The notes: generated by a model from the sequence alone, not told the origin. 33,339 bases of DNA, filler included, from an uncultured virus (IMG/VR IMGVR_UViG_2049941000_000888) (13 parts of one record of this genome joined end to end with filler, not necessarily neighbours in it), one strand, 5' to 3'. Positions 2,495 through 32,811 are shown, numbered from the whole stretch's first letter. Translations and numbers: made by a program.

Positions 2495-2596
2495 NNNNNN
2501 NNNNNNNNNNNNNNNNNNNNNNNNNNNNNNNNNNNNNNTTAATTAATTAANNNNNNNNNNNNNNNNNNNNNNNNNNNNNNNNNNNNNNNNNNNNGG

Positions 2597-2923
2597 ATGG
2601 AGCTCTATTATTTCTGGCATATTGCAGGGGAACGTCTGGACAGCAAAATGATAGATGGCGACGATGGAAAACTGACTTATGCCAGTGTTGAGGATGAAAG
2701 CCGAGCTAATTGGATTCAAAGTCAAGAGAGTTATTATTACATGAGAGTTCCGGAATTTGCGCCTATATCAACATCACGTTTCACAACGATACAAAACGAA
2801 GCGGATGAAAACAGAATTCGGTGGATGTTGGAGGGAGTACCCGGGATTGAGGAGAAAGACATCCTCCGATTGTTTGAACTGATGAATCAGGTTCAGGATG
2901 AGATGAATAATTCACAAATTTAA
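2597..2923 (+). CDS. Hypothetical cargo protein upstream of tal copy A (probably 5'-truncated)
   Basis: 108-codon AT-richer ORF followed by a hairpin and the tal RBS. Confidence 0.6.
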   Translation: MELYYFWHIAGERLDSKMIDGDDGKLTYASVEDESRANWIQSQESYYYMRVPEFAPISTSRFTTIQNEADENRIRWMLEGVPGIEEKDILRLFELMNQVQDEMNNSQI

Positions 2924-2941
2924 CTGCACATCTCGAAATCA

Positions 2942-2973
2942 AGCCTCGTTCAGAAGAGCGGGGCTATTTCTAT
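2942..2973 (+). terminator. Hairpin terminator before tal copy A
   Basis: AGCCTCGTTC-AGAA-GAGCGGGGCT with G-U pairs, then ATTTCTAT. Confidence 0.6.
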
Positions 2974-2994
2974 ACCCTTTTGGAGGTGACTTCC

Positions 2995-4014
2995 ATGATC
3001 TGCGTTTATCCTGCTGACTGCACGGACTTTTCCACGAACGGAAACGGCACCATTGAGCCGACTTCCGCGCTGGTAACGGAAACCTTGAACGGAGAATACG
3101 AACTGCAGTTGGTTCATCCGATCGATGATGCGGGGAAATGGCAGCGGCTGGTGGAAGGCTGCATCCTCCGTGCTCCTGTTCCGGCGGCGACAACGCCCCG
3201 GGTGCACTTTTCCGCCCCGGGTGATGACAGCGGGACAGAGATCTATCGTATCCATACGGACTTTCCCGGAGCGGAAACCCGGAAAGGCACCCTGAACCTG
3301 CGCTCTGGCCCCGGCAGGAGCTATAAGATCCTCGCAGCCTACAAGAACACTCTGACCGTGCAGGTGATCGCCAAGACTAGCTCTACCTGGTATGAGGTGA
3401 CAGCTCCAGATGGAAAACACGGGTATATGGATACTACGTACCTTGTGTATGATCACACCGAGGGCAGTGCTTCTGAGGCTGTTTCCTCTGTGGTAGAGGA
3501 ACGGCAGCTTCGGGATCAGCCCTTNNNNNNNNNNCGGATACATGGATACGACCTATCTGGTGTTCGATCATCAGGAAGGTTCAGCTTCCGAGGCTGTTTC
3601 CTCTGTGGTAGAGGAACGGCAGCTTCGGGATCAGCCCTTCCGGATCTACCGGATCGTCCCAGAACTGGATAAGATCACGGTATATGCCCGGCATGTGTTT
3701 TACGACTTGCTGGACAATATGATCAAAAGCTACAAGCCTTCATCCTCTGCGGTGGGGGCTTCTGTTGTACAGACGGTTTCTTCTTCCTGCCTTTCGGATC
3801 ATGATTTTACCTTCTACTCTGACTTGGACAGCACCGCCGAGGATGTAGTATTCGAGAATGTGAACCCCGTGGATGCCATCCTCGGTGAAGACGGTGTCGT
3901 CGAAAAGTATACCGGCGAACTCACCCGCGACTGGTGGGATGTTTTTGTCGTTAAACGCGTCGGGCGGGATACCAACGTCCAGATCCGGCAGGCAAAGAAC
4001 CTGCTGGGAATCTC
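2995..4014 (+). CDS. Phage tail spike/Tal N-terminal region with SH3b insert, copy A (islands 2995-3524 and 3535-4014)
   Basis: MICVYPADCTDFSTNGNG..ETLNGEYELQLVHP; QPFRIYRI..ITVYARHVFYDL; GELTRDWWD..KNLLGI; GGAGGTG RBS. Confidence 0.85.
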
Positions 4015-4114
4015 NNNNNNNNNNNNNNNNNNNNNNNNNNNNNNNNNNNNNNNNNNNNTTAATTAATTAANNNNNNNNNNNNNNNNNNNNNNNNNNNNNN
4101 NNNNNNNNNNNNNN

Positions 4115-5164
4115 TGGAGTGACAATAACCGCAACGGCTGCGGGGTACCAGGGCAGCACGATCTCNNNNNNNNNNCTACCTGAGCAATGTCTACCACGTG
4201 GTAGACTGGCGGTTTGGTACAAAGGTGAAGAGTACGACTACTGCTGTCGGCGCTTCTTCCACTTCCTATACGATCCCGTTGAGTTGGCTGACTGTTATTC
4301 CCAATGCGACGTCCGGCACGGCAACTGTATCGGTTACGACTTATGCGTCCGGCGGCTTGGAGCTGGGAACAGACACGTACAGTTTCACCATNNNNNNNNN
4401 NCAGATCCCGAATGCTACCAGCGGCGTGTGCACGATCACCTGTAACAGCTTTGTCAATGGAACGCTCACGGGAACACGGACGTGCACAATCACGCTGACA
4501 GTCCCGTCCAGCGTTGTACCGACAATCTCTGCCGTTACAGTGGATGACACGAACAGCACAGTCAAAACCCGGATCGCCGCATACGTGAAGAGCCTGAGCA
4601 AGCTGTCTGTGGCCATCACGGCGGCAGGCGCGTACAGCAGCACCATTTCTTCCTACCGGACAACGCTGGATGGTGTGACCTATACAGCGGCATCTTTCAC
4701 TGCGACAAAAGCACTCTCCGCAGCTGGTTCCCTGACGCTTACGGTCACGGTTACGGATAGCCGGGGCCGGACAGCGACATACAGCACCACCATCACGGTG
4801 CTGGATTACGCCTATCCGTCAATCAGNNNNNNNNNNNNNNNNNNNNNNNNNNNNNNNNNNNNNNNNNNNNTTAATTAATTAANNNNNNNNNNNNNNNNNN
4901 NNNNNNNNNNNNNNNNNNNNNNNNNNCTATGCCAGCAATAATGCCCAGTTCACAATCACGGCGACAGTTGTCCAGCAGTATGCGAAATCCTCTGCACGGG
5001 TTACCTCGAGCGTGGAGGCGGGTGGCACATCTACCGTCACCTTCATTAACCCTTATTTGAGCAACGTCTACCATGTGGTGGACTGGCGGTTTGGCACAAA
5101 GGTGAAGAGCACGACTACTGCTGTCGGCGCTTCTTCCACTTCCTATACGATCCCGTTAAGCTGG
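4115..5164 (+). CDS. DUF859-like siphovirus minor tail protein fragments (4115-4165, 4176-4391, 4402-4826, 4927-5164)
   Basis: IPNATSG..TITLTVPSSVVPTIS..AYSSTISSY..TVTVTDSRGR..TITVLDY motifs. Confidence 0.7.
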
Positions 5165-5174
5165 NNNNNNNNNN

Positions 5175-5513
5175 CGATGACGTCTACGACGATATGATCC
5201 TGACCGCTACCTGCTTTATCGCTGATCCGGAGCGGATCCCTGTGATTGCCGCATGGCTGAAGGGAAAAGGCACCGTGACCTTTGCCAACCGGACTGGCGG
5301 GCACTACAATGCCCGGATCGCCAACCAGATCCCCTTTGAGAAAGTTCTCCGGGGCAATCCGCATTGTTCCTTTGCTGTGAACTTCCGGTGCTTTCCATTT
5401 TGGTACAAGGACAATGTATCGGATGTGACGATCACCACGTCCGGCGGCACAATCACCAATCCAGGCAGCGTTTATTCTGAGCCGATCATCACTGTGACGG
5501 GCTCCGGGGATAT
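5175..5513 (+). CDS. Distal tail protein (Dit), internal fragment
   Basis: IAAWLKGKGTVTFAN..YNARIANQIPFE..FAVNFRCFPFWY..ITNPGSVYSEP. Confidence 0.8.
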
Positions 5514-5523
5514 NNNNNNNNNN

Positions 5524-6224
5524 AAAGGCAAACTACCAGAACAGTATTGCCTCTGGGGTGACCGGTTCCGGCTATGTCGGTGATGCGTTGGGAACCTTCA
5601 CGGGGCATTTCTACGGAAACACTTCTGCTTATGAACTGACCGGATCGCTGTACAACGCCGTCGCGGCTTATCTTGCTGCTGGGAATAACACATTCACGAT
5701 TTACAANNNNNNNNNNCCTGTCCTGGTCGGATGTCGTCATCACGGTAACGTATGAGGAAGCAGCCTCCCAGCCAAGCACTTCGGCATCTACAGTGGCGAT
5801 GGGCAGTGCGGTGACGATCTATACCAACCGCCCAAGCTCTGCCGTGACGCACACCATCTCATACTGGTTCGGAAATACCAGTGGCGCGATTGCCACAAAT
5901 GTTGGAGCATCCGTCTCCTGGACTCCACCTCTCTCGCTGGCAAGTCAGATCCCGAATGCTACCAGCGGTGTGTGCACGATTACTTGTAACAGCTTTGTCA
6001 ACGGAACGCTAACGGGTACCCGAACGTGTACGCTCACCCTGACAGTCCCGTCCAGCGTTGTGCCGACTATCTCCGCCGTTGCTGTGGATGATACGAACAG
6101 CACGGTTAAAACCCGNNNNNNNNNNCGCCATGGGTAGTGCGGTGACAATCTACACCAACCGTCCGAGTACCGCTGTGACGCACACCATCTCATACTGGTT
6201 CGGAAATACCAGTGGCGCGATTGC
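5524..6224 (+). CDS. DUF859-like tail protein fragments (5524-5706, 5717-6115, 6126-6224)
   Basis: SWTPPLSLASQIPNATSGVCTITC; near-identical to 7259-8063. Confidence 0.7.
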
Positions 6225-6234
6225 NNNNNNNNNN

Positions 6235-6684
6235 CCTTGGCCTTTCGCCGGATGTATTTGGTGATGCTTTCGCCGTTTCCGATGTTTCAAAACAGTTTGC
6301 AAACGGAAACCCAAGTTATGTTGCCGGAATAAACGGATGTGAGCTTGCAAGAAAAGTACTGTCTGAAACAAATATATCTTTTCATGATACGGAAGATATT
6401 ATGTATTTGGACAAATCACCGGAGTACTGGGCCGGATGGGCTTTGGCATATTACCAGTGGTACAGTGACCGCTCTTTCATGGAGATCCTGACTGCTGTTC
6501 CTCTGGAGGTAATTATTGATCTGTATAATCCTTACCACGAAATGGACATCAGACAATTTGTTGATCTGATGGATCAGAAATTGAAAATGGCATTTCCACA
6601 GACCAGACTGAAAAAACGGCGTGAAATCTGTGGGCTGTCTCAGTCAGAATTAGCAAACGAAGCTGGTGTCCCGCTTCGACAGAT
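6235..6684 (+). CDS. Transcriptional regulator with C-terminal XRE HTH (fragment)
   Basis: FANGNPSYVAGINGCEL..SPEYWAGWALAYYQW..YHEMD then RLKKRREICGLSQSELANEAGV. Confidence 0.75.
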
Positions 6685-6983
6685 NNNNNNNNNNNNNNNN
6701 NNNNNNNNNNNNNNNNNNNNNNNNNNNNTTAATTAATTAANNNNNNNNNNNNNNNNNNNNNNNNNNNNNNNNNNNNNNNNNNNNATCCGACTATATAACA
6801 GTACAAGGAATAAACCTGACATTTAGCAATCCAGATATGTATGAATTGGGAGAGATTGTTACGTCCATAGATGCATCTGATCCTGATGTTAACGAAATGC
6901 CGGACCGGCAATAACGCCATACGAAAATTTGCTCTTCTTTTACTTTTCCACGCAAGTGGGAAAACCCGCAAAGCCGCGAAAAA

Positions 6984-6999
6984 CCACAAGATATTGTGT
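6984..6999. promoter_or_regulatory. Palindromic site resembling an NrdR box
   Basis: CCACAAGATATTGTGT versus consensus acaCwAtATaTwGtgt; no nrd gene visible. Confidence 0.3.
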
Positions 7000-7025
7000 C
7001 TTTGTAGCTATGATCATACTACATA

Positions 7026-7084
7026 GGGAGAGCACATCGTTCACATCGATGGGGTCGTTGGTTCGAGTCCAACTGTCACCACCA
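7026..7084 (+). tRNA. 5'-truncated tRNA-Val(CAC) fragment, probable att-site duplication
   Basis: GGGAGAGC-A-CATCG-TTCACAT-CGATG-GGGTC-GTTGG-TTCGAGT-CCAAC-TGTCACC-A-CCA; no upstream strand pairs with acceptor TGTCACC. Confidence 0.8.
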
Positions 7085-7089
7085 GAGCG

Positions 7090-7121
7090 GAAGCCGTTGA
7101 AAATCAACGGCTTCTTCTTTT
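7090..7121 (+). terminator. Rho-independent terminator after the tRNA fragment
   Basis: GAAGCCGTTGA-AAA-TCAACGGCTTC then TTCTTTT. Confidence 0.8.
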
Positions 7122-7258
7122 ATGCCTTCACCCCGGGGTGCACTGCCCCGGGGTGGTTNNNNNNNNNNNNNNNNNNNNNNNNNNNNNNNNNNNNNNNNNN
7201 NNTTAATTAATTAANNNNNNNNNNNNNNNNNNNNNNNNNNNNNNNNNNNNNNNNNNNN

Positions 7259-8063
7259 TGGAAATAACACATTCACGATTTACAATCCCAACCCCAGTGC
7301 GTCGGCACAGGGCTATTCCTATAACTATCTGTCATGGTCGGATGTCGTNNNNNNNNNNGAAGGCAAACTACCAGAACAGTATTGCCTCCGGGGTAACCGG
7401 TTCCGGCTACGTCGGTGATGCGCTGGGAACTTTTACCGGACACTTCTATGGCAATACATCCGCTTATGAGCTGACCGGATCATTGTACAATGCCGTCGCG
7501 GCTTATCTTGCTGCCGGAAATAACACGTTCACGATTTACAATCCCAACCCCAGCGCGTCGGCACAGGGCTATTCCTANNNNNNNNNNCATCACAGTCACG
7601 TATGAGGAAGCGGCCTCTCAGCCGAGCACTTCTGCCGCAACAGTTGCCATGGGTAGCGCGGTAACAATCTATACCAACCGCCCGAGCTCTGCAGTGACAC
7701 ATACCATCTCGTACTGGTTCGGCAATACTAGCGGTGCGATCGCGACGAACGTCGGGGCATCCGTTTCCTGGACTCCGCCTCTGTCGCTGGCAAGCCAGAT
7801 CCCGAATGCCACCAGCGGTGTGTGTACGATCACCTGTAACAGCTTCGTCAACGGAACCCTGACGGGTACCCGAACATGTACGATTACACTGACAGTCCCG
7901 GCTAGTGTAGTGCCTTCCATATCCGCTGTGGCTGTGGATGATACGAATAGCACGGTTAAAACCAGGATCGGGGCCTATGTGAAGAGCCTGAGCAAGCTGT
8001 CTGTGGCCATCACGGCGGCAGGTGCGTACAGCAGCACCATTTCCTCTTACCGGACAACGCTGG
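7259..8063 (+). CDS. DUF859-like tail protein fragments, variant copy (7259-7348, 7359-7577, 7588-8063)
   Basis: Same protein as 5524-6115 with mostly synonymous changes. Confidence 0.7.
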
Positions 8064-8181
8064 NNNNNNNNNNGATATTCTGTTTTTCCTGTAGAGTCAT
8101 CAGATAGTCCCCCAATCGTTAGATCGTTTGACTATCTACGCCCAAAGAACGAGTGATTTTATAAACGGAAATCGAAAAAAC

Positions 8182-8307
8182 TTACGCTAAGTTTCTCACA
8201 GGAACGCTTATCATGGCCCTTTGCATGTTAAAGCACAATCCTGCCTGTCTGCCGATCGGAAGGATAATCGCATCAAGGGTATACCGGTACCCTTTCTTCC
8301 ATCCGGC
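8182..8307 (-). CDS. C-terminus of uncharacterised paralog-family protein (variant of 18053-18477)
   Basis: AGWKKGYRYTLDAIILPIGRQAGLCFNMQRA..* matches AGWKKGYRYTLEAIILPIGRQTGLFFNLERA. Confidence 0.75.
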   Translation of the reverse strand, partial: AGWKKGYRYTLDAIILPIGRQAGLCFNMQRAMISVPVRNLA

Positions 8308-8471
8308 NNNNNNNNNNCCCTTCCAATGGCTGACACGGGATACGGTAAGAGTAATCTTCCTCCCAGCCCATAGTTGCAAACAGCACCTTGCTCAGTGAAC
8401 TGGCACCCCGACTGTTTGAATCCCATGGGATCGCGTTCGGATTATCAACCTTGCATGGACGNNNNNNNNNN

Positions 8472-8918
8472 TCAGCGGCAGTCCATTGTGAAATGGGCCG
8501 CTTTTGCCGCAGCCATCGGTCCCGCCGTCCTGATCCTCGGGAAAGTGGTCGGCGCTGTCGGAAAGGTCTCCGGCGCTCTGGGTACCGCCTTTACCGCCAT
8601 CGGAAAGTTCTCCGCGAAAGTCAGCATGGCTGGCGGCGGACTGGGCGGATTGCTGAAAACACTGGTTTCCTCCAAACTGGCCATGGTGGCGCTTGCCGCA
8701 GCCGTTGTGTACGGTGCTATCAAACTGGTGGACTACGCTTCCGGCGCGAAAGCGGCGCGTGAAGCCCTCGAGGGCATGGCGAAAACAGCAAAGAGCTGGA
8801 AAGAAACCGAAGCGGACACTTTCTACAGCCGGAGCAAGGGGTTGTCCTTCTTTGGCATGACGAAGGATGACTTTGTCCGCACGACGGCCAGTGCTAAGGA
8901 ATGGCTTTCCGGCCTGAC
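8472..8918 (+). CDS. Tape measure protein fragment
   Basis: QRQSIVKWAAFAAAIGPAVLILGKVVGAVGKV.. Ala/Gly-rich hydrophobic TMP segment. Confidence 0.8.
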
Positions 8919-8928
8919 NNNNNNNNNN

Positions 8929-9138
8929 AGCGGCAGTCAGGTGATACTTCACCTCGATTGCTTCCCGGGTATCGATCAGTTCCTGCAGGCGGAGTTTATC
9001 TTTTTCCGTCAGTTTCCGGTTCTTCCGCTTTTTCAGGAGAGTGGTGATCTCCTTGTCCATGGCATCCAGCGTTTTGATGTCCGCCTGTAGCTGATCCGAA
9101 ACAGAAGTATACCCGGCGGCATCCGCTGTATCCTTCAT
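8929..9138 (-). CDS. Tape measure fragment, reverse-oriented variant of 9180-9394
   Basis: MKDTADAAGYTSVSDQLQADIKTLDAMDKEI on the minus strand. Confidence 0.6.
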
Positions 9139-9148
9139 NNNNNNNNNN

Positions 9149-10184
9149 GACTGCCACCACCCGGGAATCCCTGCAGGAAATGAAGGATACAGCGGATGCC
9201 GCCGGGTATACATCCGTTTCAGATCAGCTGCAGGCGGATATCAAAACGCTGGACGCCATGGATAAGGAGATCACTGCTCTCCTGAAAAAACGGAAGAACC
9301 GGAAACTGACAGAAAAGGATAAGCTCCGCCTGCAGGAGCTGATTGATACCCGGGAAGCGATCGAGGTCAAGTATAAACTGACCGCCGCCGACACNNNNNN
9401 NNNNNNNNNNNNNNNNNNNNNNNNNNNNNNNNNNNNNNNNNNNNNNNNNNNNNNNNNNNNNNNNNNNNNNNNNNNNNNNNNNNNNNNNNNNNNNNNNNNN
9501 NNNNNNNNNNNNNNNNNNNNNNNNNNNNNNNNNNNNNNNNNNNNNNNNNNNNNNNNNNNNNNNNNNNNNNNNNNNNNNNNNNNNNNNNNNNNNNNNNNNN
9601 NNNNNNNNNNNNNNNNNNNNNNNNNNNNNNNNNNNNNNNNNNNNNNNNNNNNNNNNNNNNNNNNNNNNNNNNNNNNNNNNNNNNNNNNNNNNNNNNNNNN
9701 NNNNNNNNNNNNNNNNNNNNNNNNNNNNNNNNNNNNNNNNNNNNNNNNNNNNNNNNNNNNNNNNNNNNNNNNNNNNNNNNNNNNNNNNNNNNNNNNNNNN
9801 NNNNNNNNNNNNNNNNNNNNNNNNNNNNNNNNNNGATGGCGGACATGGTGAATCCCGTCTGGAAGCAGGATAATGTTCAGGAAGCAAAAGGCCAGATCGG
9901 TGAACTGATGCAACTGCTGCGCCAGTACAGTACCGCGAAGACCGACTCTGAGAAGAAGGCCTTCCTGCCTGAACTGAACAAGCTGACTGCCAGCATGGAC
10001 GAGGGTGCACTGACGGAATATGTCAGCTTGCTTACCCAGATCCAGTCCCTGCTGGACAGCGGGATGACGGAAGACGAAGTCCAGGCTATGTTCCCGGATA
10101 TCGACTTCACGACTGCGCTGGACCAGCTGGCGGCAATCCAGCAGTTCCTGAAGGATAATAAATGGGATACAAACTTGACCAGCC
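9149..10184 (+). CDS. Tape measure fragments (9149-9394, 9835-10184) across a 440-N gap
   Basis: Helical/coiled-coil sequence consistent with a TMP continuation. Confidence 0.6.
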
Positions 10185-10284
10185 NNNNNNNNNNNNNNNN
10201 NNNNNNNNNNNNNNNNNNNNNNNNNNNNTTAATTAATTAANNNNNNNNNNNNNNNNNNNNNNNNNNNNNNNNNNNNNNNNNNNN

Positions 10285-10645
10285 CTCTTTTGCCGTGAAC
10301 TTCCGCTGCTATCCCTTCTGGTACAAAGATAATGTATCGGATGTGACAATCACCACATCCGGCAGCACAATCACCAATCCAGGCAGCGTTTATTCCGAGC
10401 CGCTCATCACCCTGACAGGCTCCGGGGATATCACCCTGATGGTCGGAACTACGATCGTAGAACTGACGGATATCACCACGGGTATTGTGCTGGACTGTGC
10501 CTTGAAAGAAGCGTACCTGGGAACGACTCTTATGAATGACCATATGTCCGGGGATTTCCCAGTACTGAAACCCGGCCTGAACGCCATCAGCTGGTCTGGG
10601 AATGTGACGAGCGTTGTGATTTCTCCGAGATGGCGGTTCCTTTGA
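10285..10645 (+). CDS. Dit C-terminal half
   Basis: FAVNFRCYPFWY..NPGSVYSEP..MSGDFPVLKPGLNAISWSGNVTSVVISPRWRFL*. Confidence 0.85.
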
Positions 10646-10676
10646 TGGTGGTTTCATGGTATTCTGNNNNNNNNNN

Positions 10677-10762
10677 CGGTACTGAAACCCGGCATGAACG
10701 CGAACAGCTGGACCGGGAATGTGACGAGCGTTATGATTTCTCCGAGATGGCGGTTCCTTTGA
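10677..10762 (+). CDS. Dit C-terminus, variant contiguous with the ECF cargo
   Basis: VLKPGMNANSWTGNVTSVMISPRWRFL*; same downstream sequence as 10646-10666. Confidence 0.8.
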
Positions 10763-10878
10763 TGGTGGTTTCATGGTATTCTGTTTTCGGCAGGAAAGAC
10801 CTGCCACAAATTATTTTCTCAAAATACGACATTTTTTCTTCCTCATCAGTCTGTAGGGATGTAGGGGGTGATCAACAC

Positions 10879-11406
10879 GTGAGCAATGTTATGGGCCCTA
10901 ACACTGCTCCGAATCATGATCAGATATTTGAACGGCTTGTGGATCAGTACCAGGAATCAGTTCTTCGCACTTGTTTCCTCTATCTTTGTGATAAAACATT
11001 GGCTGAGGATGCAACGCAGGAAACTTTCCTGAAGGTGTACCGTGCAATGGATTCATTCCGTGGAGAGAGCAGTGAAAAGACATGGGTACTAAAGATCGCC
11101 ATGCACACTTGCTATGACATAAATCATTCAGGTTGGTTCCGCCTAATGAATCGTTGTGTGACACCAGAAATGCTCCCTGATCAATCTTCCACAGCGGTCA
11201 TCGATCATGATGAAGAGTTAGCAACGGCGGTAATGAAACTGCCCAGAAAACTGCGTGAAGTGATTCTTCTACATTATTATCAGGAATTGAATGTTAACGA
11301 AATAGCAGTTGCCCTGGGCATCTCGCATTCCTCTGTATCAGGCAGATTGAAAAGAGGACGCGAAAAGCTGAGAAAACTGCTGGAAGGGAGAGAAATCGAT
11401 GAATGA
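10879..11406 (+). CDS. ECF sigma-70 factor (cargo between dit and tal)
   Basis: GTG after GGGGGTGA; region 2 LAEDATQETFLKVY..KTWVLKIA; region 4 LPRKLREVILLHYY..EIA..SVSGRLKRGR. Confidence 0.92.
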   Translation: MSNVMGPNTAPNHDQIFERLVDQYQESVLRTCFLYLCDKTLAEDATQETFLKVYRAMDSFRGESSEKTWVLKIAMHTCYDINHSGWFRLMNRCVTPEMLPDQSSTAVIDHDEELATAVMKLPRKLREVILLHYYQELNVNEIAVALGISHSSVSGRLKRGREKLRKLLEGREIDE

Positions 11407-12391
11407 AAAGATAAGTGCTAACGAGTTCCGTCAGTCGCTTGACCGTCATCTCTCTCACATGAAAGCTGATCCATGGCTTGCTCAGCGCATCATAGCTTCA
11501 GAGAGAGGAGAAACAAAAGTGAAAAAGAAACTTTCTGTCAGCATGATAGTCGCTTCACTCTTGCTGGTACTAACAACTGTAGCGTTGGCAGTCACCGGTC
11601 TTTACCGGGTAATCAATTGGCAGGGTGATGTCACCAGAACGACGGATCCCTCACAAACACCCGGCACAGATACTGTGCAAGCTGTATCTGAGGAGTGGCA
11701 TGTAGATTCTCTTAATTCTTTTATAAGTGAAATACCGAATGAAGAAACCGCCTTCGCATGGTACAATAACGATGATGGCAGCATAAAATGCAGCGAACTT
11801 CATCAGAAACAAATACCAATCTCGTCCATCGAATGGTTTGCTGAATACATGCATGATATCCGACATCTGTCTGTACCTGTTTCGTTTCCAGAAGGAAATG
11901 TTACCTATTGTTATGGGAAAGTATTCATGGAATGCAAAGCCTTCGGAAAATATTCACTGATCAAAAACGGTCAGTCAGGATCAATGTGCTACAACCGGTT
12001 TCTGATTGACGAATCGAGCTCCATTGTTACAGGCTATGACCTATTCTTTGCTTTGGGTGACCCGGAGAATGGAACCCGATTTATTATCAGATCCGAGTTG
12101 CATGACAGAACTTATGAAGAACCGCTCATGCTCCGTGAGGGTGAAACAGCAAAGAAGGTAAGCATCGAAGGCATGTCGGACGCTTTACTGATCATGGCAG
12201 AGGATCCTGCCTATCCGGATGGACTAATCATGCAACGAAAACTCGACGAACCTGTCCAGTTAAAACAGCTTCCTTTAAATAACAGATTAGAAGAATCTGA
12301 CGACAGGAATTGTCAATATGAATATATAACCGTTTGGGTATATAATTGTGACGATCCTGAATGCTTGCTGGAACTGTTTTCTGCAGAATAG
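11399..12391 (+). CDS. Anti-sigma factor-like single-pass membrane protein
   Basis: Overlaps the sigma stop; short cytoplasmic N-terminus, KKK + TM (LSVSMIVASLLLVLTTVALAV), large extracellular domain. Confidence 0.8.
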   Translation: MNEKISANEFRQSLDRHLSHMKADPWLAQRIIASERGETKVKKKLSVSMIVASLLLVLTTVALAVTGLYRVINWQGDVTRTTDPSQTPGTDTVQAVSEEWHVDSLNSFISEIPNEETAFAWYNNDDGSIKCSELHQKQIPISSIEWFAEYMHDIRHLSVPVSFPEGNVTYCYGKVFMECKAFGKYSLIKNGQSGSMCYNRFLIDESSSIVTGYDLFFALGDPENGTRFIIRSELHDRTYEEPLMLREGETAKKVSIEGMSDALLIMAEDPAYPDGLIMQRKLDEPVQLKQLPLNNRLEESDDRNCQYEYITVWVYNCDDPECLLELFSAE

Positions 12392-12412
12392 ATGTAAACT
12401 GAATTTCTCTAT

Positions 12413-12443
12413 AACGCCATTCCTTGTGGGTGGCGTTTTCATT
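12413..12443 (+). terminator. Hairpin terminator before tal copy B
   Basis: AACGCCATTC-CTTGT-GGGTGGCGTT then TTCATT. Confidence 0.7.
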
Positions 12444-12467
12444 ATGCCAATAAGGAGGTGACTTCCC

Positions 12468-12907
12468 ATGATCTGCGTTTATCCTGCTGACTGCACAGAC
12501 TTTTCCACGAATGGAAATGGAACCATTGAGCCGACTTCCGCACAGGTGACGGAAACCCTGAACGGAGAATACGAACTGCAGCTGGTACATCCGATTGATG
12601 AAGCGGGAAAATGGCAGCGACTGGTGGAAGGCTGTATCCTCCGTGCTCCGGTTCCGGCGGCAACTACACCCCGGGTACACTTTTCTGCACCGGGTGATGA
12701 CAGCGGCACAGAGATCTACCGGATCAATACAGACTTTGCCGGAGCGGAAACCCGGAAAGGTACCCTGAATCTGCGCTCCGGCCCCGGCAGGAAATATAAG
12801 ATCCTTGCGGCCTATAAGAACACTCTAACCGTTCAGGTGATCGCCAAGACCAGCAGTGCCTGGTATGAGGTCACTGCTCCTGACGGGAAACATGGGTACA
12901 TGGATAC
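12468..12907 (+). CDS. Tal/tail spike N-terminus, copy B
   Basis: MICVYPADCTDFSTNGNG..; AGGAGGTG RBS. Confidence 0.85.
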
Positions 12908-12918
12908 NNNNNNNNNNC

Positions 12919-13875
12919 TGGATTGACCTCCGAAAGCAGTATGAGGACCCCAGCAATCTCTTCAAAAACAAGCTCAAACTGGAGAGCTTCCTGAAGGAGG
13001 TGCCGGACTGGTGTATCATGCCGACTCTTTTCCCTTTTATGGTGTTGACCGACCGATTTGGAGAAGTCTTCTACATGAGCCACATGGACGAGATCATGAC
13101 TCTGGGCAGTACGTATATCTGGCGCTGTAGCAAAGGCATATACCGTTTCGCGCCAGAAATCTACCAGGCGTTGATCAGCCAGCCAATTACTGGCGATCTC
13201 CCAATGGAGTGCCTGTACCATCTGCCGGAATGGGCAGTGTACATTGAGACTCCCGGGCTCACGTATGAAAGGCATCCAATGTACGGATTTATTGCGCATC
13301 TGGACTACAACTTATTCAGCAAAAACGTCGACCTCCAGTTTGCCATGTTTTTGGAAGGAAGAGAGATGCCGAAAACAGTTGCCCTGCCATTCGGTGAAGG
13401 CGGCGTTCAGGAAGCTATGGAGCGCGTGGATCAGGTGGATAGCCTGTTCGGGAACCCACATGTGCAGGTACGCTATGTCGGAAGCCGCGACGAGTACAAA
13501 GCAACCTTCACAGCCATGCTACAGCTGCTACTTTATCTATGCAGCGATGAGCCCGATATGCCCGAGATAGAGCATCCGCAGAAACGAAAAACGCTCTCCG
13601 GGCGCGTCAGGCCACCAGAAGAGCCGAGGGTTTGGGACGTTGGTGTGCGGATTTCCAATGTGATCCGGAGATGCCGTGAAAGCGGAGTATCATACCGGTA
13701 TGATGAAAACGCGGAGCCTGGTTCCCACGCCAGCCCACGTCCACACGTCAGGTCAGCCCACTGGCACACGTATTGGACTGGCCCCCGTCAGGCTCATTTC
13801 CCGGAAAGAAAACCAATTGTGAAGTGGATACCGCCAATTCCGATAGGTATGGACTGGAAAAGAGAACTACCAACC
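12919..13875 (+). CDS. AcrVA2/FinQ-family-like protein (both ends truncated)
   Basis: WRCSKGIYRFAP..GDLP..LYHLPEWAVYIETP; LLLYLCSDEPD; WDVGVRI; SPRPHVRSAHWHTYWTGP; VKWIPPI. Confidence 0.75.
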
Positions 13876-13885
13876 NNNNNNNNNN

Positions 13886-14246
13886 CTCTTTTGCGGTGAA
13901 CTTCCGCTGCTATCCATTCTGGTACCAGGACAATGTAGCCGATGTGACAATTACGACGTCAGGCAGCACAATCACCAATCCCGGCAGCGTTTATTCTGAG
14001 CCGATCATCACTGTGACGGGCTCCGGGGATATCACGCTTATGGTCGGAACTACGATCGTAGAACTAACAGACGTTTCCCAGAGCATTGTGATCAACTCTA
14101 CCCTGAAGGAAGCCTACAAAGGTAATACCCTGATGAACGACCACATGAGCGGAGATTTCCCTGTGCTGAAACCGGGCCTGAACGCGATCAGCTGGACTGG
14201 CACTGTGACACAGGTGACCGTGAAGCCGAACTGGCGATATCTGTAA
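13886..14246 (+). CDS. Dit C-terminal half, variant upstream of the DUF6442 cargo
   Basis: ..MSGDFPVLKPGLNAISWTGTVTQVTVKPNWRYL*. Confidence 0.85.
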
Positions 14247-14262
14247 TATGCCCATCAACTTT

Positions 14263-14343
14263 TTGACAAGAAAACTTGGCAAAAAGTGTTGACAAGTATA
14301 CTTGGCAATGATATATTATGTTCATGCCAAGTGAACTTGGCAA
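14263..14343 (+). promoter_or_regulatory. Sigma-A promoter overlapped by three palindromic operators
   Basis: TTGACA (14289)-N17-TATATT (14312) with TG extension; operators TTGACAAGAAAACTTGGCAA, TTGACAAGTATACTTGGCAA, ATGCCAAGTGAACTTGGCAA. Confidence 0.85.
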
Positions 14344-14356
14344 AGGAGGGTAGATA

Positions 14357-14677
14357 ATGAACAAAGAAGAAATCCTGGAAAAAAGCAGGCAGGAAAATCA
14401 TGGACAGGATATTGCAAACCTTGAGGTGTCCAGATCGAGCATTGTGTGTGGCTGGATCGTCGCTGTATGCATACTTGCAGTCGTTGCTGTTACTGAAGCA
14501 TTGAAATATGACCGAATGAACAATGGGATATTCTTTGCCATCATGGCAGGATGTTCAGCCATCTTCATTCGCAAATACCTGAAGCTTCACAAACAACACG
14601 AGCTGATCATTTCCATCGTATATATTGTTGCCGCTATTGCGTTTCTCGTTGGCTGGATTTTGCAGTTGGTGAATTGA
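14357..14677 (+). CDS. DUF6442-like small three-TM membrane protein
   Basis: MNKEEILEKSRQEN start, three hydrophobic segments; AGGAGG RBS. Confidence 0.75.
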   Translation: MNKEEILEKSRQENHGQDIANLEVSRSSIVCGWIVAVCILAVVAVTEALKYDRMNNGIFFAIMAGCSAIFIRKYLKLHKQHELIISIVYIVAAIAFLVGWILQLVN

Positions 14678-14689
14678 TGAGGTGGCAGT

Positions 14690-14896
14690 ATGGATGATCA
14701 GCTTATTCTGAAAAACAGACTCAAGGAAATCCGAGCAGAGAAGAAACTATCACAGACTGATTTAGCAGAGATGGTTGGTGTTTCACGCAACACAATCAGT
14801 TCAATTGAAACAGGTCAGTTCTGTCCCACTGCCAAATTGGCTTTAATACTTTGCATCGCTTTAGATAAAAAGTTCGAGGATGTATTTTTCTTCTGA
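14690..14896 (+). CDS. XRE-family HTH regulator
   Basis: LKNRLKEIRAEKKLSQTDLAEMVGVSRNTISSIETGQFCPTAKLA. Confidence 0.92.
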   Translation: MDDQLILKNRLKEIRAEKKLSQTDLAEMVGVSRNTISSIETGQFCPTAKLALILCIALDKKFEDVFFF

Positions 14897-14915
14897 TCCT
14901 GGCCAGCACACTTTC

Positions 14916-14951
14916 GGCGTCGCTCAAGCAAACGAGCGGCGCTTTCATTTT
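14916..14951 (+). terminator. Hairpin terminator before tal copy C
   Basis: GGCGTCGCTC-AAGCAAAC-GAGCGGCGCT then TTCATTTT. Confidence 0.7.
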
Positions 14952-14973
14952 GCCATCGAGGAGGTGAATTCCC

Positions 14974-15620
14974 ATGATCTGTGTTTATCCCGCTGACTGT
15001 ACCGATTTCTCTACCAATGGCAACGGTACGATTTCTCCTTTGACTGCGGAAGTCACCGAGACCCTGAATGGTGAGTATGAACTGACAGTTGTTCATCCGA
15101 TCGACGATGAAGGGAAATGGCAGCGGCTGGTCGAGGGGTGTATCCTCCGTGCTCCGGTGCCTGCGGCAACCACTCCCCGGGTGCACTTTTCCGCGCCGGG
15201 CGATGACAGCGGCACAGAGATTTATCGAATCAATACCGACTTTGCCGGAGCGGAAACCCGGAAAGGTACCCTGAACCTCCGCTCTGGTCCCGGCAGGAAC
15301 TACAAGATCCTTGCGGCCTACAAGAACACCCTGACCGTTCAAGTGATTGCCAAGACCAATGCCTCCTGGTATGAGGTCACAGCCCCGGATGGAAAGCACG
15401 GGTACATGGATACGACCTATCTGGTATTCGATCACCGGGAAGGTTCCGCTTCTGAGGCTGTTTCCTCTGTGGTGGAAGAACGCCAGCTCCGGGACCAGCC
15501 GTTCCGGATCTACCGGATCGTTCCTGACCTCGATAAGATCACAGTATATGCCCGGCATGTCTTCTACGACCTGCTGGACAATATGATCCAGTCCTACAAG
15601 CCCTCATCCTCTGCGGTGGG
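14974..15620 (+). CDS. Tal/tail spike N-terminus, copy C
   Basis: MICVYPADCTDFSTNGNGTISPLTAEV..; truncated by gap. Confidence 0.85.
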
Positions 15621-15720
15621 NNNNNNNNNNNNNNNNNNNNNNNNNNNNNNNNNNNNNNNNNNNNTTAATTAATTAANNNNNNNNNNNNNNNNNNNNNNNN
15701 NNNNNNNNNNNNNNNNNNNN

Positions 15721-16470
15721 TGAACCGATGGTGGAAGCTGAAGTGTACACGCTGACTCTGTGTGTTTCTTCGTTGGATCTGTCCGAGATTGACGTCTATA
15801 CGGCTGACGGGCACGTCCTGCTTGAGAGCATCAGTCTTGATACTTCAGCGACTTCGGAAATCGTCCACGCCACCTTTATGGCGGAGTACACCACCGGGTA
15901 TACTCCTGAGGATGATCCGAACAACGCTGATATCCTGATCAAGCGTTCTCCGACGGGAATGTCGTCGCCTGAAGACTTCACGATCCATTGGGCCAAGCTG
16001 GAGAAAGGCAACCGGGCAACNNNNNNNNNNGGTAACGAGGATCAACCAGCTGGAGGAAGACCTGCAAAATGCCCATGAGGCAACGGAAGAGGAACTGGCC
16101 ATCATCCGTACCTACATGACCTTCGGGGATAATGGCCTGATCATCGGCAAGACCGGGAACCCGTTCACTTTCCGGGTCGTGAATGACAGGCTGGCATTCT
16201 ACATGAACGACACCGAGGTTGCCTATCTNNNNNNNNNNCTACATGACCTTTGGGGATAACGGCCTGATTATCGGGAAAACCGGAAACCCGTTCACCTTCC
16301 GGGTCGTGAACGATAGGCTGGCATTCTACATGAATGACACCGAGGTTGCCTATCTGAGCAACAACAAACTGTACGTCACACAGGCCGAGATCCTGACAAA
16401 GTTGATCATCGGTAAGTTTGCCTTTGTCCCGCAGACGAACGGCAACATGTCCATTGTTTACAACGGGTAA
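15721..16470 (+). CDS. Tail spike C-terminal fragments (15721-16020, 16031-16228, 16239-16470)
   Basis: WAKLEKGNRA; YMTFGDNGLIIGK..NDRLAFY..VAYLSNNKLYVT..QTNGNMSIVYNG*. Confidence 0.75.
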
Positions 16471-16490
16471 TACCGGGAAAGGAGAATACC

Positions 16491-16659
16491 ATGGCAACAA
16501 CCGTAAATTACGCCGCANNNNNNNNNNCAATAGCGCGGCGCAGGAATTCTATGAAGCCGGTTCAAACAACGTTGGTATCATCTGCTTTTCCGGTATGAAC
16601 CTTGCGAACAAGGTCATACAGGAAATCATCTTCACCATTACGGCAAAGAAAGCCGGTTA
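16491..16659 (+). CDS. Start and fragment of the following minor tail protein(s) (16491-16517, 16528-16659)
   Basis: AAGGAG then MATTVNYAA; NSAAQEFYEAGSNNVGIICFSGMNLANKVI. Confidence 0.55.
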
Positions 16660-16669
16660 NNNNNNNNNN

Positions 16670-16758
16670 ATGAGGAATACCTACGCAGGGAAGAAGAAAT
16701 GGCGGATTTATCAGACGATTATTTGAACATATTGAAAGAACAGTATCTATCGTACTAA
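16670..16758 (+). CDS. C-terminus of unknown cargo upstream of tal copy D
   Basis: EEYLRREEEMADLSDDYLNILKEQYLSY*; AT-rich. Confidence 0.45.
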
Positions 16759-16781
16759 TGCTTTATCATGAATAGTGTTAT

Positions 16782-16812
16782 GCGTCGTTTGATCGAACGG
16801 CGCTTTAATTTT
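16782..16812 (+). terminator. Hairpin terminator before tal copy D
   Basis: GCGTCGTTT-GATC-GAACGGCGC then TTTAATTTT. Confidence 0.7.
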
Positions 16813-16834
16813 GCCCTCAAGGAGGTGACTTCCC

Positions 16835-17025
16835 ATGATCTGCGTTTATCCTGCTGACTGCACGGACTTCTCCACCAACGGAAACGGAACGATCGAGCCG
16901 ACTTCCGCGCTGGTGACGGAAACTCTGAATGGTGAATATGAGCTGCAGCTGGTGCATCCCATTGATGAAGCGGGTAAATGGCAGCGACTGGTGGAAGGCT
17001 GTATCCTCCGTGCTCCGGTTCCGGC
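16835..17025 (+). CDS. Tal/tail spike N-terminus, copy D
   Basis: MICVYPADCTDFSTNGNG..LRAPVP. Confidence 0.85.
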
Positions 17026-29890: not shown

Positions 29891-29892
29891 TA

Positions 29893-32717: not shown

Positions 32718-32811
32718 CGTTTTGGCTGGAGCTTTTCGAAATATTTCTCGGGAATGTTGTATAATCGTTTTATGCTTGCGTCTAAATAGGTGAAAGGGGG
32801 TATGCGGTGCC

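What the first reader, a model, noticed from the sequence alone, without database searches (positions are those of the whole stretch)
2597..17025. Variable cargo slot between dit and tal in a multi-copy tail module
Seen within gap-free islands: dit - ECF sigma - anti-sigma - tal (10677-12907) and dit - promoter - DUF6442 - XRE - tal (13886-15620). Two more tal starts (2995, 16835) are preceded by two other unrelated AT-richer ORFs. That is four different passengers at the same position, while Dit and Tal stay nearly identical. Established: dit and tal are normally adjacent in siphoviruses, and morons carry their own promoter and terminator. Inference: a dedicated gene-capture hotspot exchanged by recombination in the conserved flanks, shuttling host regulatory modules. 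This is the best candidate here for an undescribed system.
Basis: partly seen in the sequence, partly recalled or inferred. Interest (0 to 1): 0.85.

Follow-up and report, generated by a model that had tools for sequence, protein, structure and literature searches.

The report
Swappable cargo slot between tail genes
A family of dormant viruses in rumen and gut bacteria keeps a slot between two tail genes where dozens of different self-contained host-type genes are swapped in and out, a richly populated example of a known kind of viral add-on site.

Summary
The window is a patchwork of short, strain-mixed contigs carrying several variants of one siphovirus tail module. Between the dit stop codon and the tal ribosome-binding site lie different inserts: two ECF sigma/anti-sigma cassettes, DUF6442+XRE, and an L002-type HTH protein.

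In 68 independent public loci with both gene ends, 13 slots are empty, 2 are short and 53 are occupied. The occupied slots hold 37 distinct cassettes in 32 families. Neighbouring tail junctions are almost never occupied: 0 of 43, 5 of 46 and 0 of 31.

Each cassette is AT-richer than its flanks. It usually begins with a sigma-70-like promoter just after the dit stop. It ends in a conserved, covarying terminator hairpin about 30 nt before tal.

Identical cargo sits in diverged flanks, with breakpoints inside dit and tal. This fits exchange by homologous recombination.

No recombinase or att-like repeat was found, so "dedicated capture" is unsupported. This is a moron hotspot, a new variant of a known kind. 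Its unusual traits are cargo diversity, a backbone-owned terminator and, in one sub-clade, shared promoter/leader and 3' boxes around unrelated ORFs.

The parts
10285..10645 (+). Dit C-terminal 116 codons plus stop, on its own island; its 3' end overlaps the next island at 94%
   Evidence: full-length homologue L001:4575-5273 matches phrog_33 'distal tail protein Dit', E 7e-38
10677..10762 (+). last 86 nt of dit, including the stop, at the start of the gap-free island 10677-12907
   Evidence: aligned with L066
10763..10884 (+). leader of the ECF cassette, with hairpin GGCAGG-AAAGA-CCTGCC; shared with L066, L037 and L025; no sigma-70 consensus promoter found
10885..11406 (+). ECF-type sigma factor gene (start codon uncertain)
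   Evidence: Pfam Sigma70_r2 4e-13 and Sigma70_r4_2 2.5e-13; phrog_1740; 99.4% aa identity to L066
11399..12391 (+). 330-aa putative anti-sigma factor overlapping the sigma stop; no Pfam family
   Evidence: Its N-terminal 52-109 residues resemble the partners of the other slot sigmas: L037 55.8% over 52 aa, L025 28.4% over 109 aa
12413..12437 (+). terminator hairpin followed by TTCATTATGC, then RBS GGAGGTGA
   Evidence: -13.2 kcal/mol, z -2.69
12468..12907 (+). Tal N-terminal 146 codons (cut by the island end), with an SH3_3 insert
   Evidence: full-length L001 Tal matches PF06605 at 63.8 bits
13886..14246 (+). Dit C-terminal 119 codons plus stop
   Evidence: 99% aa identity to L001
14289..14317 (+). 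sigma-70-like promoter TTGACA-17-TATATT with TG, 43 nt after the dit stop, flanked by repeated TTGGCAA-type operator-like words
14357..14677 (+). DUF6442 small membrane protein gene (cargo)
   Evidence: Pfam PF20040 1.5e-15
14690..14896 (+). XRE-family HTH regulator gene (cargo)
   Evidence: Pfam HTH_3 1e-15
14916..14943 (+). terminator hairpin (10 pairs) followed by TTCATTTTGC
   Evidence: -18.3 kcal/mol; hairpin family covaries
14974..15620 (+). Tal N-terminal 215 codons (cut by the island end)
2597..2923 (+). C-terminal 108 codons of an anti-sigma factor of a second ECF cassette (L039 type), cut by the island start
2942..2965 (+). terminator hairpin before tal
   Evidence: -18.9 kcal/mol, z -5.0
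2995..3524 (+). Tal N-terminus, third copy
16672..16758 (+). last 28 codons plus stop of an L002-type 230-aa HTH protein (fourth cargo)
16782..16803 (+). terminator hairpin before tal
16835..17025 (+). Tal N-terminus, fourth copy (63 codons)
5175..5513 (+). internal Dit fragment of a further variant

Best explanation
The dit-tal junction of a family of temperate siphoviruses is a moron hotspot. The hosts are rumen and gut Clostridia, and Christensenellales is named in several record titles. The nearest named phages are Ca. Heliusvirales. Each insert is an insulated transcription unit in the same orientation as the tail genes. A promoter sits directly after the dit stop codon, followed by one to six AT-richer host-type genes. 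A GC-rich hairpin with a T-run lies about 30 nt before the tal ribosome-binding site.

Shown here: the anatomy, the specificity of the site, the cargo diversity, selection on the hairpin, and cargo tracts nearly identical inside diverged dit and tal flanks.

Inferred:
(i) Cargo is expressed from the prophage for the benefit of the lysogen, through regulation, efflux, arsenic resistance, alarmone synthesis and candidate phage defence.
(ii) The terminator keeps cargo transcription out of tal during lysogeny, while late transcription reads through it.
(iii) Cassettes move between co-resident or co-infecting relatives by homologous recombination in dit and tal.
(iv) New cargo enters by rare illegitimate recombination inside the slot. 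This leaves nested remnants of older cassette ends, namely the shared promoter/leader and 3' boxes.
For: Specificity.
- Junctions longer than 150 nt: tmp>small 0 of 43, small>dit 5 of 46, dit>tal 53 of 68, tal>next 0 of 31.
- Of the 68 loci with both ends, 13 are empty (30 nt or less), 2 are short and 53 are occupied. The occupied ones hold 37 cassettes in 32 families.

Anatomy.
- A promoter-like site lies in the first 160 nt after the dit stop in 26 of 37 cassette representatives, against 14 of 319 coding control segments.
- The conserved-type hairpin is present in 33 of 37 representatives. In 38 aligned sequences 95.9% of cells pair, 7 of 9 pairs carry compensatory changes, and 0 of 500 shuffles reach this. 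Slid controls give 29-63% paired.
- Cargo GC is below flank GC in 37 of 37 (median 0.453 against 0.563).

Boundaries.
- Homology between loci ends within 10 nt of the dit stop in 2332 of 3852 pair ends. It resumes at -40..-31 or -20..-11 from the tal ATG in 2508 of 3852.

Exchange.
- L023/L064: dit 98-100%, cargo 99.9%, tal 68-69%.
- Window ECF cassette against L066: 91.7%, 99.3%, 87.5%.
- L017/L040: 90.3%, 95.0%, 76.1%.
- Mismatch-free tracts end 26-350 nt inside dit and 0-270 nt inside tal.
- Nine pairs have tal at 95% or more but dit below 80%, and eight of them (all but L015/L061, both MarR/MerR-type unrelated inserts, so in fact all nine) differ in slot content; the pairs include one locus with an empty slot (L020).

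Cargo.

Independent support.
- Contigs bridge both junctions.
- Several copies occur per MAG. Two copies lie in one 1.6-Mb long-read contig, one occupied and one empty.
- Nine of 50 genome loci are tal 5' stubs that keep the hairpin. In the seven that keep upstream sequence, accessory genes (GNAT, flavodoxin-like, Fic and others) lie upstream; ordinary host genes lie downstream. This fits cargo retained after prophage decay.
Against: - No expression data of value. The RNA runs are contigs only and cover dit, cargo and tal alike.
- Read-through or antitermination is pure inference. The only hint is that L001 has other terminator-like hairpins inside the same operon.
- Eleven of 37 cassettes show no sigma-70 consensus promoter, and these include all four ECF cassettes.
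- L043 and L054 show no terminator hairpin.
- Nearly all loci come from short-read metagenome assemblies. The 50-60 nt of near-identical sequence spanning terminator, RBS and tal start could let an assembler switch strains exactly there. Some of the recombination patches could therefore be chimeric contigs.
- Recurrent breakpoints are more regular than random illegitimate recombination would predict: +73..79 after dit and -82..-87 before tal, shared by five or more unrelated cargoes.
- Only 4 of 39 cargo proteins match PADLOC families with more than a generic HTH or P-loop stretch, so a benefit to the host is unproven for most.
Confidence: 0.8

Rival explanations
1. The slot is a backbone-owned expression platform rather than a site for self-contained morons. 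The phage supplies a fixed promoter/leader and a fixed 3' box plus terminator, and ORFs are exchanged between them. Exchange runs through circularised dit3'-cargo-tal5' fragments that integrate by homologous recombination and can build tandem arrays. This would be a recombinase-free analogue of PeSL cassettes or integron arrays.
For: - An ~85-nt left box follows the dit stop in front of at least 7 unrelated cargoes (L008, L046, L048, L049, L053, L062, L073). It holds an extended -10 (TGCTATATT), two small hairpins and an RBS.
- A ~30-nt right box (ATTCCAGTTTTCCGAGATGAATAA) lies between the cargo stop and the hairpin in L015, L048, L052, L053, L073, L075 and L079.
- Breakpoints recur at +73..79 and -82..-87.
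- The hairpin travels with the tal clade, not with the cargo.
- L073 is a tandem array whose joints are tal5'(31 codons)::dit3'(34 codons) and right-box::dit3'(39 codons).
Against: - The boxes occur only in one sub-clade. Other cassettes carry their own distinct promoters with cognate operators, for example DUF6442-XRE, ArsR, MarR and MerR.
- Nested breakpoints at 0, +18, +73 and +83 fit successive random replacements as well.
- Only 1 of 87 loci, and not the window, shows an array.
- No circle junction has been observed.
Confidence: 0.15
2. A dedicated site-specific capture system, integron-like or driven by a tyrosine or serine recombinase, inserts cassettes at an attachment site between dit and tal.
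For: The insertion point is very sharp and shared, and a conserved hairpin sits at the right boundary.
Against: - No repeat is shared between the left and right cargo boundaries. Local alignment scores fall within the shuffled null in 8 of 8 loci tested; the best was L062, reached by 9 of 300 shuffles.
- Empty sites show no conserved core beyond the coding sequence and RBS.
- No recombinase gene lies in or beside the slot, apart from one IS5-like transposase inside the L012 cargo.
- The hairpin is followed by a T-run, like an ordinary intrinsic terminator.
- L005 shows a left breakpoint inside dit.
Confidence: 0.03
3. The variable slot is an assembly artefact, produced by chimeric joins of unrelated contigs at repeated tail genes.
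For: The window itself is a patchwork with non-colinear islands and overlapping strain variants.
Against: - Cargo abuts the dit stop and the tal RBS inside gap-free islands.
- The same junctions recur in independent IMG/VR and MAG contigs of up to 1.6 Mb, and in a DNA-run contig.
- Twenty runs of 14 studies hold the stretch.
- Several cassette-plus-flank combinations appear in two or more separate contigs: L017 and L034 (IMG/VR contigs) are 100% identical to each other, L040 (MAG) carries the same cassette at 95.0% cargo identity with diverged flanks (dit 90.3%, tal 76.1%), and L008 = L041 and L010 = L047 are 100% identical.
Confidence: 0.02
4. The slot is chiefly an anti-phage defence or superinfection-exclusion island, like the hotspots of P2/P4.
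For: - L010 435 aa matches PDC-S01 (E 2.6e-112).
- L027 KilA-N protein matches PDC-S22 (E 1e-131).
- RelA_SpoT proteins match PDC-S33 (E 1e-23), and a NUDIX protein matches PDC-S07.
- A RelB/ParE pair sits in the slot of the published phage PV036419.
- Small membrane protein plus XRE pairs could be exclusion systems.
Against: - Thirty-three of 39 cargo proteins have no PADLOC match; of the 6 with any match, L002 and L008 match only over a generic HTH or P-loop stretch, leaving 4 substantive matches.
- Many cargoes are regulators, transporters or resistance genes: ArsR-ArsP-thioredoxin, ACR3, MATE, MerR-TipAS and ECF sigma pairs.
- The PDC families are themselves untested candidates.
Confidence: 0.2

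Closest known systems
Morons of lambdoid phages, e.g. the HK97 gene 15 moron inside the tail operon. Hendrix 2000, Juhala 2000 and Cumby 2012 were seen only as citations and passages in PMC11087260 and PMC6379469.
   Same: Extra genes between two phage genes that are adjacent in relatives. They have their own promoter and terminator, a deviating base composition and host-type functions, and they lie inside a tail operon.
   Different: Here a single junction (Dit-Tal) in a phage family of Clostridia (Bacillota) hosts carries 37 different cassettes. The terminator is a conserved, covarying backbone element shared by unrelated cargo, and in one sub-clade so are the promoter and leader.
Cargo hotspots of P2-like phages and P4 satellites (Z/fun, tin/old). 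Rousset 2022 was seen only in a reference list. Earlier scan notes e1-372853, e1-524976 and e1-397708 also apply.
   Same: Fixed positions between conserved phage genes holding interchangeable accessory genes. Some slots lie between tail genes.
   Different: A different phage lineage, host phylum and junction. The cargo is dominated by regulators and resistance modules rather than recognised defence systems, and it runs in the same orientation as the tail genes.
PeSL (promoter-early stem-loop) regulatory cassettes of T4-type phages. Arbiol et al. 2010, PMC2839356; abstract and outline read.
   Same: Conserved promoter and terminator stem-loop motifs flank unrelated small ORFs and offer homology for modular shuffling. 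The L073 joint of terminator, tal5'::dit3' and promoter resembles a composite terminator-promoter motif.
   Different: PeSLs are many short repeats scattered through the hyperplastic regions of lytic myoviruses, and mini-circles were shown physically. Here there is one slot in temperate siphoviruses. The main homology is the flanking structural genes, and no circles have been observed.
Anti-CRISPR (acr-aca) loci between structural genes of Mu-like Pseudomonas phages
   Same: Variable small genes at one fixed position between conserved structural genes, with their own promoter and a trailing HTH regulator. Compare DUF6442-XRE and AAA_14/DUF4143-XRE here.
   Different: No acr homology was tested or found. 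The cargo here is much broader.
Integron gene cassettes
   Same: One site, many promoterless or self-contained cassettes, and occasional arrays.
   Different: No integrase, no attI or attC, and no repeat shared by the two cassette ends.

Membership tests
Moron (Hendrix/Juhala definition, recalled; usage confirmed in PMC11087260 passage) | Lies between two genes that are directly adjacent in related phages | tested here: met
   13 of 68 loci have dit and tal 30 nt or less apart. PV036454 (16 nt) and L088 (15 nt) are also empty.
Moron | Own promoter upstream of the extra gene(s) | tested here: inconclusive
   Consensus match in 26 of 37 cassettes against 14 of 319 controls. No experimental start-site data. 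ECF cassettes lack a sigma-70 match.
Moron | Own factor-independent terminator downstream | tested here: met
   Hairpin plus T-run in 33 of 37 cassettes, with 7 of 9 pairs covarying and 0 of 500 shuffles as good. L027 and L036 have other hairpins. L043 and L054 have none.
Moron | Base composition differs from the surrounding phage genes | tested here: met
   Cargo GC below flank GC in 37 of 37.
Moron | Expressed from the repressed prophage | not testable with these tools
   RNA runs are available only as contigs. They cover cargo and flanks alike.
Siphovirus Dit | Homology to the distal tail protein, encoded after TMP and before Tal | tested here: met
   phrog_33 E 7e-38. Gene order is TMP, 76-aa ORF, Dit, Tal, DUF859 tail protein. 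No Pfam hit.
Siphovirus Tal / tail-tip protein | Prophage_tail (PF06605) N-terminal domain, large protein following Dit | tested here: met
   PF06605 at 63.8 bits (cut-off 31.3) at residues 197-460 of the 1438-aa L001 protein. An SH3_3 insert lies at 99-150.
Integron-like or site-specific cassette system | Recombinase gene next to the site, and a repeated recombination core at both cassette ends | tested here: not met
   No repeat between the left and right boundaries in 8 of 8 loci. Neighbours are tail genes only.
PeSL-type regulatory cassette shuffling | Conserved promoter and stem-loop motifs flanking unrelated ORFs | tested here: met
   Left box before at least 7 cargoes. Right box plus hairpin after at least 7 cargoes, in one sub-clade only.
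PeSL-type regulatory cassette shuffling | Circular recombination products (mini-circles) | not testable with these tools
   Indirect only: the tandem array with tal5'::dit3' joints in L073, 1 of 87 loci.
Phage-defence hotspot | Cargo enriched in known or candidate defence families | tested here: inconclusive
   4 of 39 cargo proteins match PDC families: S01, S22, S33 and S07. A RelB/ParE pair sits in PV036419.

The most novel reading that the evidence does not exclude
The Dit-Tal slot is a phage-owned, insulated expression site with a fixed promoter/leader and a fixed 3' box plus terminator. ORFs are exchanged almost ORF-precisely through circular dit3'-cargo-tal5' intermediates that integrate by homologous recombination, occasionally building arrays. 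This would be a recombinase-independent counterpart of integrons operating across prophages of gut and rumen Clostridia (Bacillota).
Probability: 0.15. Interest if true: 0.8.

Novelty: new variant of a known kind. Interest (0 to 1): 0.55.

Why it matters
- The slot marks by position alone a large, mostly uncharacterised set of genes that prophages carry for uncultured rumen and gut Clostridia. The set includes 37 cassettes: ECF sigma pairs, one-component regulators with membrane partners, arsenic and efflux modules, small alarmone synthetases and candidate defence genes. This makes it a guilt-by-location resource.
- It documents how regulators and resistance modules move between strains on phage backbones.
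- It also shows a natural position where a tail operon tolerates a foreign transcription unit, with a conserved terminator as insulator. That bears on how late transcription passes terminators in these phages.

Tried and rejected
- Whole-genome context: none is held.
- Rfam: nothing reached a gathering score on window 10285-17025 or on the L048 slot. The best hit was ncS54 at 23.2 against 43 bits.
- Direct repeats or an att core at the cassette ends: scores fall within the shuffled null.
- Depth in RNA contigs: the cargo contig has higher word depth than the flanks in X16 and X19 and lower in X15.
- Earlier notes of this scan: nothing for this genome or this sequence.
- My greedy ORF caller picked antisense shadow ORFs in several slots (L011, L014, L017, L051, L057). 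These were corrected by Pfam and by junction similarity. Only L043, L062 (197 aa) and L072 (174 aa) may hold real minus-strand genes, and none has a Pfam hit.
- Literature on a Dit-Tal slot:
  - 'moron' + 'distal tail protein' + 'prophage' gave 10 papers. The two I opened were irrelevant.
  - 'moron' + 'hotspot' + 'tail genes' + 'temperate' gave 4 papers.
  - 'dit' + 'tal' + 'inserted between' + 'prophage' + 'accessory' gave 0 papers.
  - 'Christensenellales' + 'prophage' + 'tail' gave 7 papers.
  - 'Heliusvirales' gave 6 papers. In PMC11283538 the words hotspot, cargo, accessory and variable region occur 0 times, and moron occurs once in a figure legend. Its supplements were not read.
- A pattern scan for further tal5'::dit3' joints in public collections was considered and dropped, because each event would have its own joint.

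Full report
**What the window is.** The 33,339-base window is not a contiguous genome stretch. It consists of 70 islands. Many are joined by 10-N gaps. Twelve joins are 100-base linkers of the form N44-TTAATTAATTAA-N44. Islands on either side of a 10-N gap often overlap at 91-96% identity. Island order is also not colinear with the phage. For example, 16528-16659 maps 4.4 kb downstream of tal in L001 and L003, yet it sits just before a tal start in the window. The window therefore looks like a strain-mixed, scaffolded metagenome assembly. No whole genome is held for it. Only what lies inside a single island counts as linkage.

**Check of the observation.** Two islands contain a complete interval.
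- Island 10677-12907 holds the last 86 nt of dit and then an ECF sigma factor gene (Sigma70_r2 and r4). Next come an overlapping 330-aa ORF with no Pfam family, a hairpin with a T-run at 12413-12437, and tal at 12468.
- Island 13886-15620 holds the Dit C-terminus followed by a near-consensus extended promoter at 14289-14317. Next come DUF6442, an XRE regulator, a terminator at 14916-14943, and tal at 14974.

Full-length relatives confirm the gene names. L001 Dit matches phrog_33, 'distal tail protein Dit' (E 7e-38). L001 Tal carries PF06605 at 63.8 bits. The gene order is tape measure, a 76-aa ORF, Dit, Tal, then a DUF859 tail protein.

The other two tal starts (2995 and 16835) are real, but what precedes them was misread.
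- ORF 2597-2923 is the C-terminal part of an anti-sigma factor. It is 100% identical over 193 aa to the one in L039, where a complete ECF sigma/anti-sigma cassette fills the slot.
- Only 165 in-island bases lie upstream of 16835. They encode the last 28 codons of a protein like the 230-aa HTH cargo of L002.

The window thus shows four different cargo contexts: two ECF cassettes with unrelated sensor parts, DUF6442-XRE, and an HTH protein. The Dit and Tal copies are 79-90% identical in DNA, not nearly identical.

**Independent support for the junctions.**
- L001 (IMG/VR, 52-kb contig) matches 13888-15620 at 96.3%.
- L066 (MAG contig) matches 10679-12907 at 96.8%.
- The DUF6442-XRE stretch is held by 20 public runs from 14 studies.
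- One DNA-run contig spans 13886-15231.

**Is it a hotspot?** I collected 35 viral loci and 50 loci from species-representative genomes with the 215-residue Tal N-terminus. Both the dit stop and the tal start could be placed in 68 of them.
- 13 intervals are 30 nt or less.
- 2 are short (56 and 75 nt).
- 53 are longer than 150 nt (median 844, maximum 4618).

As a control I measured the neighbouring junctions with the same method. Intervals longer than 150 nt occur in 0 of 43 for tape measure to the small ORF, 5 of 46 for the small ORF to dit, and 0 of 31 for tal to the next gene. The 53 occupied intervals fall into 37 distinct cassettes (at least 90% identity over at least 80% of length) and 32 families. 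Several of the 68 loci are the same element found in two collections, which is why I count cassettes rather than loci.

Two published Ca. Heliusvirales phages of Christensenellales, at 57-60% Tal identity, show the same alternatives. PV036454 is empty. PV036419 carries a RelB/ParE pair.

**Cargo**.
- Regulators, often with a membrane or enzyme partner: XRE, ECF sigma with anti-sigma, MarR+MATE+RelA_SpoT, ArsR+ArsP+thioredoxin (with ACR3 in L076), MerR-TipAS, TetR, HxlR+radical SAM, and LytTR+DUF3021.
- Enzymes: GNAT, NUDIX+VanZ, a YpsA SLOG protein, Nmad3, and a P-loop kinase-like protein.
- Large secreted proteins: BspA-LRR, SH3 and WG-repeat proteins.
- Many ORFs without any family.
- Four of 39 cargo proteins scanned match PADLOC candidate families. 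Two match over their full length: PDC-S01 at E 2.6e-112 and PDC-S22 at E 1e-131.

**Anatomy.**
- Cargo is AT-richer than the flanks in 37 of 37 cassettes.
- A sigma-70-like site lies within 160 nt after the dit stop in 26 of 37 cassettes, against 14 of 319 coding control segments. The four ECF cassettes are among the exceptions and share their own leader.
- At the right end, 33 of 37 cassettes have a GC-rich hairpin of one family (GCGTCG...CGGCGC) followed by TTTCWTTTT, about 30 nt before the tal ATG. Empty sites lack it.
- I aligned 38 of the 47 distinct right-flank sequences. Nine were dropped: L027, L028 and L036 (other hairpins), L043 and L054 (none), L064 (same as L023), and three window rows identical to L039, L066 and L001. 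In the alignment 95.9% of cells pair, 7 of 9 pairs show compensatory changes, and none of 500 shuffles reaches this. Slid controls give 29-63% pairing.
- The hairpin varies with the tal clade, not with the cargo. For example, L008, L010 and L023 share it but carry unrelated cargo.

**Exchange.**
- Between loci with different cargo, homology stops within 10 nt of the dit stop in 2332 of 3852 pair ends. It resumes at the T-run or at the RBS in 2508 of 3852.
- Where two loci share a cassette, the cargo is often far more alike than the flanks:

| Pair | dit | cargo | tal |
|---|---|---|---|
| L023 / L064 | 98% | 99.9% | 69% |
| Window ECF cassette / L066 | 91.7% | 99.3% | 87.5% |
| L017 / L040 | 90.3% | 95.0% | 76.1% |

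- Mismatch-free tracts end 26-350 nt inside dit and 0-270 nt inside tal.
- Nine pairs have tal at 95% or more but dit below 80% and differ in slot content. One locus in these pairs, L020, has an empty slot. One pair (L023/L064) has dit at 95% or more, tal below 80% and the same cargo.
- This is the signature of homologous recombination in the flanks at a module boundary.
- The caveat is serious. These are mostly short-read assemblies, and the 50-60 conserved bases around terminator, RBS and tal start are a place where assemblers can switch strains.

**What was not expected.**
- In one sub-clade the first ~75-85 nt after the dit stop are shared by at least seven unrelated cargoes. This stretch holds an extended -10, two small hairpins and an RBS.
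- In the same sub-clade a ~30-nt box between the cargo stop and the hairpin is shared by at least seven.
- Breakpoints are nested: 0, +18, +73..79 and +83 on the left, and -37, -50, -82..-87 and -105 on the right.
- No repeat links the two boundaries.
- L073 is a tandem array of three cassettes. Its joints are a tal 5' stub fused to a dit 3' stub. It is the only such case in 87 loci plus the window.
- L005 shows a deletion running from inside dit into the anti-sigma gene.
- Nine of 50 genome loci keep only the hairpin, the RBS and a tal stub of 20-270 codons. In the seven that keep upstream sequence, accessory genes lie upstream. RuvB, sugar kinase or esterase genes lie downstream of the stubs. 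This looks like cargo retained after prophage decay.

**Mechanism proposed.**
- Shown: a specific, insulated, swappable cassette site.
- Inferred: expression from the prophage, insulation of tal by the terminator, read-through by the late transcription complex, exchange by homologous recombination among co-resident relatives, and rare illegitimate acquisition within the slot that leaves older cassette ends behind.
- On read-through, L001 has other strong terminator-like hairpins in the same operon, at 4524-4557 and 12597-12620.
- On co-resident relatives, MAGs show 2-3 close copies. One 1.6-Mb long-read contig holds two copies, one occupied and one empty.

**Comparison with what is known.** The design is that of a moron, and morons inside tail operons are known (passages in PMC11087260 and PMC6379469). 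Interchangeable cargo slots between tail genes were also noted elsewhere in this scan. The conserved promoter and terminator boxes recall PeSL cassettes of T4-type phages (PMC2839356, abstract). I found no description of a Dit-Tal slot in the searches listed under Tried and rejected. The Heliusvirales paper does not mention one in the passages I saw, and I did not read its supplements.

**Verdict.** This is a real and well-supported feature, and a new variant of a known kind. It is not a new kind of system. No dedicated capture machinery is in evidence.

Noticed in passing
window 1-33339: The window is a concatenation of 70 short islands joined by 10-N gaps and twelve N44-TTAATTAATTAA-N44 linkers. 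Neighbouring islands overlap at 91-96% identity, and island order is not colinear with the phage. ORFs that cross gaps are artefacts.
   Followed up: yes
L006:2282-4272, L024:3556-4532, L030:4476-5286, L069:5156-6433: There is a second, rarer cargo site between the 76-aa ORF and dit, occupied in 5 of 46 loci. It holds a group II intron reverse transcriptase/maturase (L006, just after the backbone hairpin), an ADP-ribosylglycohydrolase with its own promoter and terminator (L024), two small ORFs (L030), and EamA plus a CsoR-like repressor on the minus strand (L069).
   Followed up: partly
L073:3679-7291: A tandem array of three cassettes: an alpha/beta hydrolase, a 201-aa ORF, and NUDIX+VanZ. 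They are separated by tal5'::dit3' and right-box::dit3' scars. The array ends in a 97-codon tal stub followed by a 415-aa minus-strand ORF that I did not scan against any family library.
   Followed up: partly
L071, L074, L075, L079, L080, L081, L083, L084, L085: Tal stubs of 20-270 codons keep their hairpin and RBS and sit in ordinary chromosomal context (RuvB, FGGY kinase, DUF711). In L075, L079 and L084 a GNAT gene lies directly upstream of the hairpin; L085 has a methyltransferase and a GGDEF protein, L084 also a flavodoxin-like gene and L079 a Fic gene further upstream.
   Followed up: partly
L005:4781-5625 (= window 2595-2994): A variant in which Dit is cut after about 70-107 residues and fused to the distal part of the anti-sigma gene. 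The deletion removes the Dit C-terminus, the sigma gene and the anti-sigma N-terminus, so the prophage is presumably defective.
   Followed up: yes
window 29839-32653, 29513-29887: Two adjacent large serine recombinase genes (Resolvase+Recombinase+Zn_ribbon) follow a SHOCT-domain ORF. This is probably another mobile element in the same assembly.
   Followed up: no
window 22316-22648 and 32794-33336: Two further ECF-type sigma genes lie outside any dit-tal slot. The second is 43.6% identical to the slot sigma and 56.5% identical to the L025 slot sigma.
   Followed up: partly
window 12919-13875: A 319-codon open frame with no Pfam family and no match in any fetched locus sits between the two slot islands across 10-N gaps. 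It is not part of the tail module.
   Followed up: partly
L001:4524-4557 and equivalent in relatives: A 15-pair hairpin followed by TTTTT lies directly before the dit RBS in the phage backbone. Together with the slot terminator, it suggests that late transcription in these phages passes intrinsic terminators.
   Followed up: no
window 12760-12905, 15266-15423; L001 Tal residues 99-150: The Tal N-terminus carries an inserted bacterial SH3_3 domain ahead of the Prophage_tail domain.
   Followed up: no
window 1-348: A Gp49-like (PF05973) ORF lies at the window start. It may be a HigB-type toxin-like phage protein.
   Followed up: no
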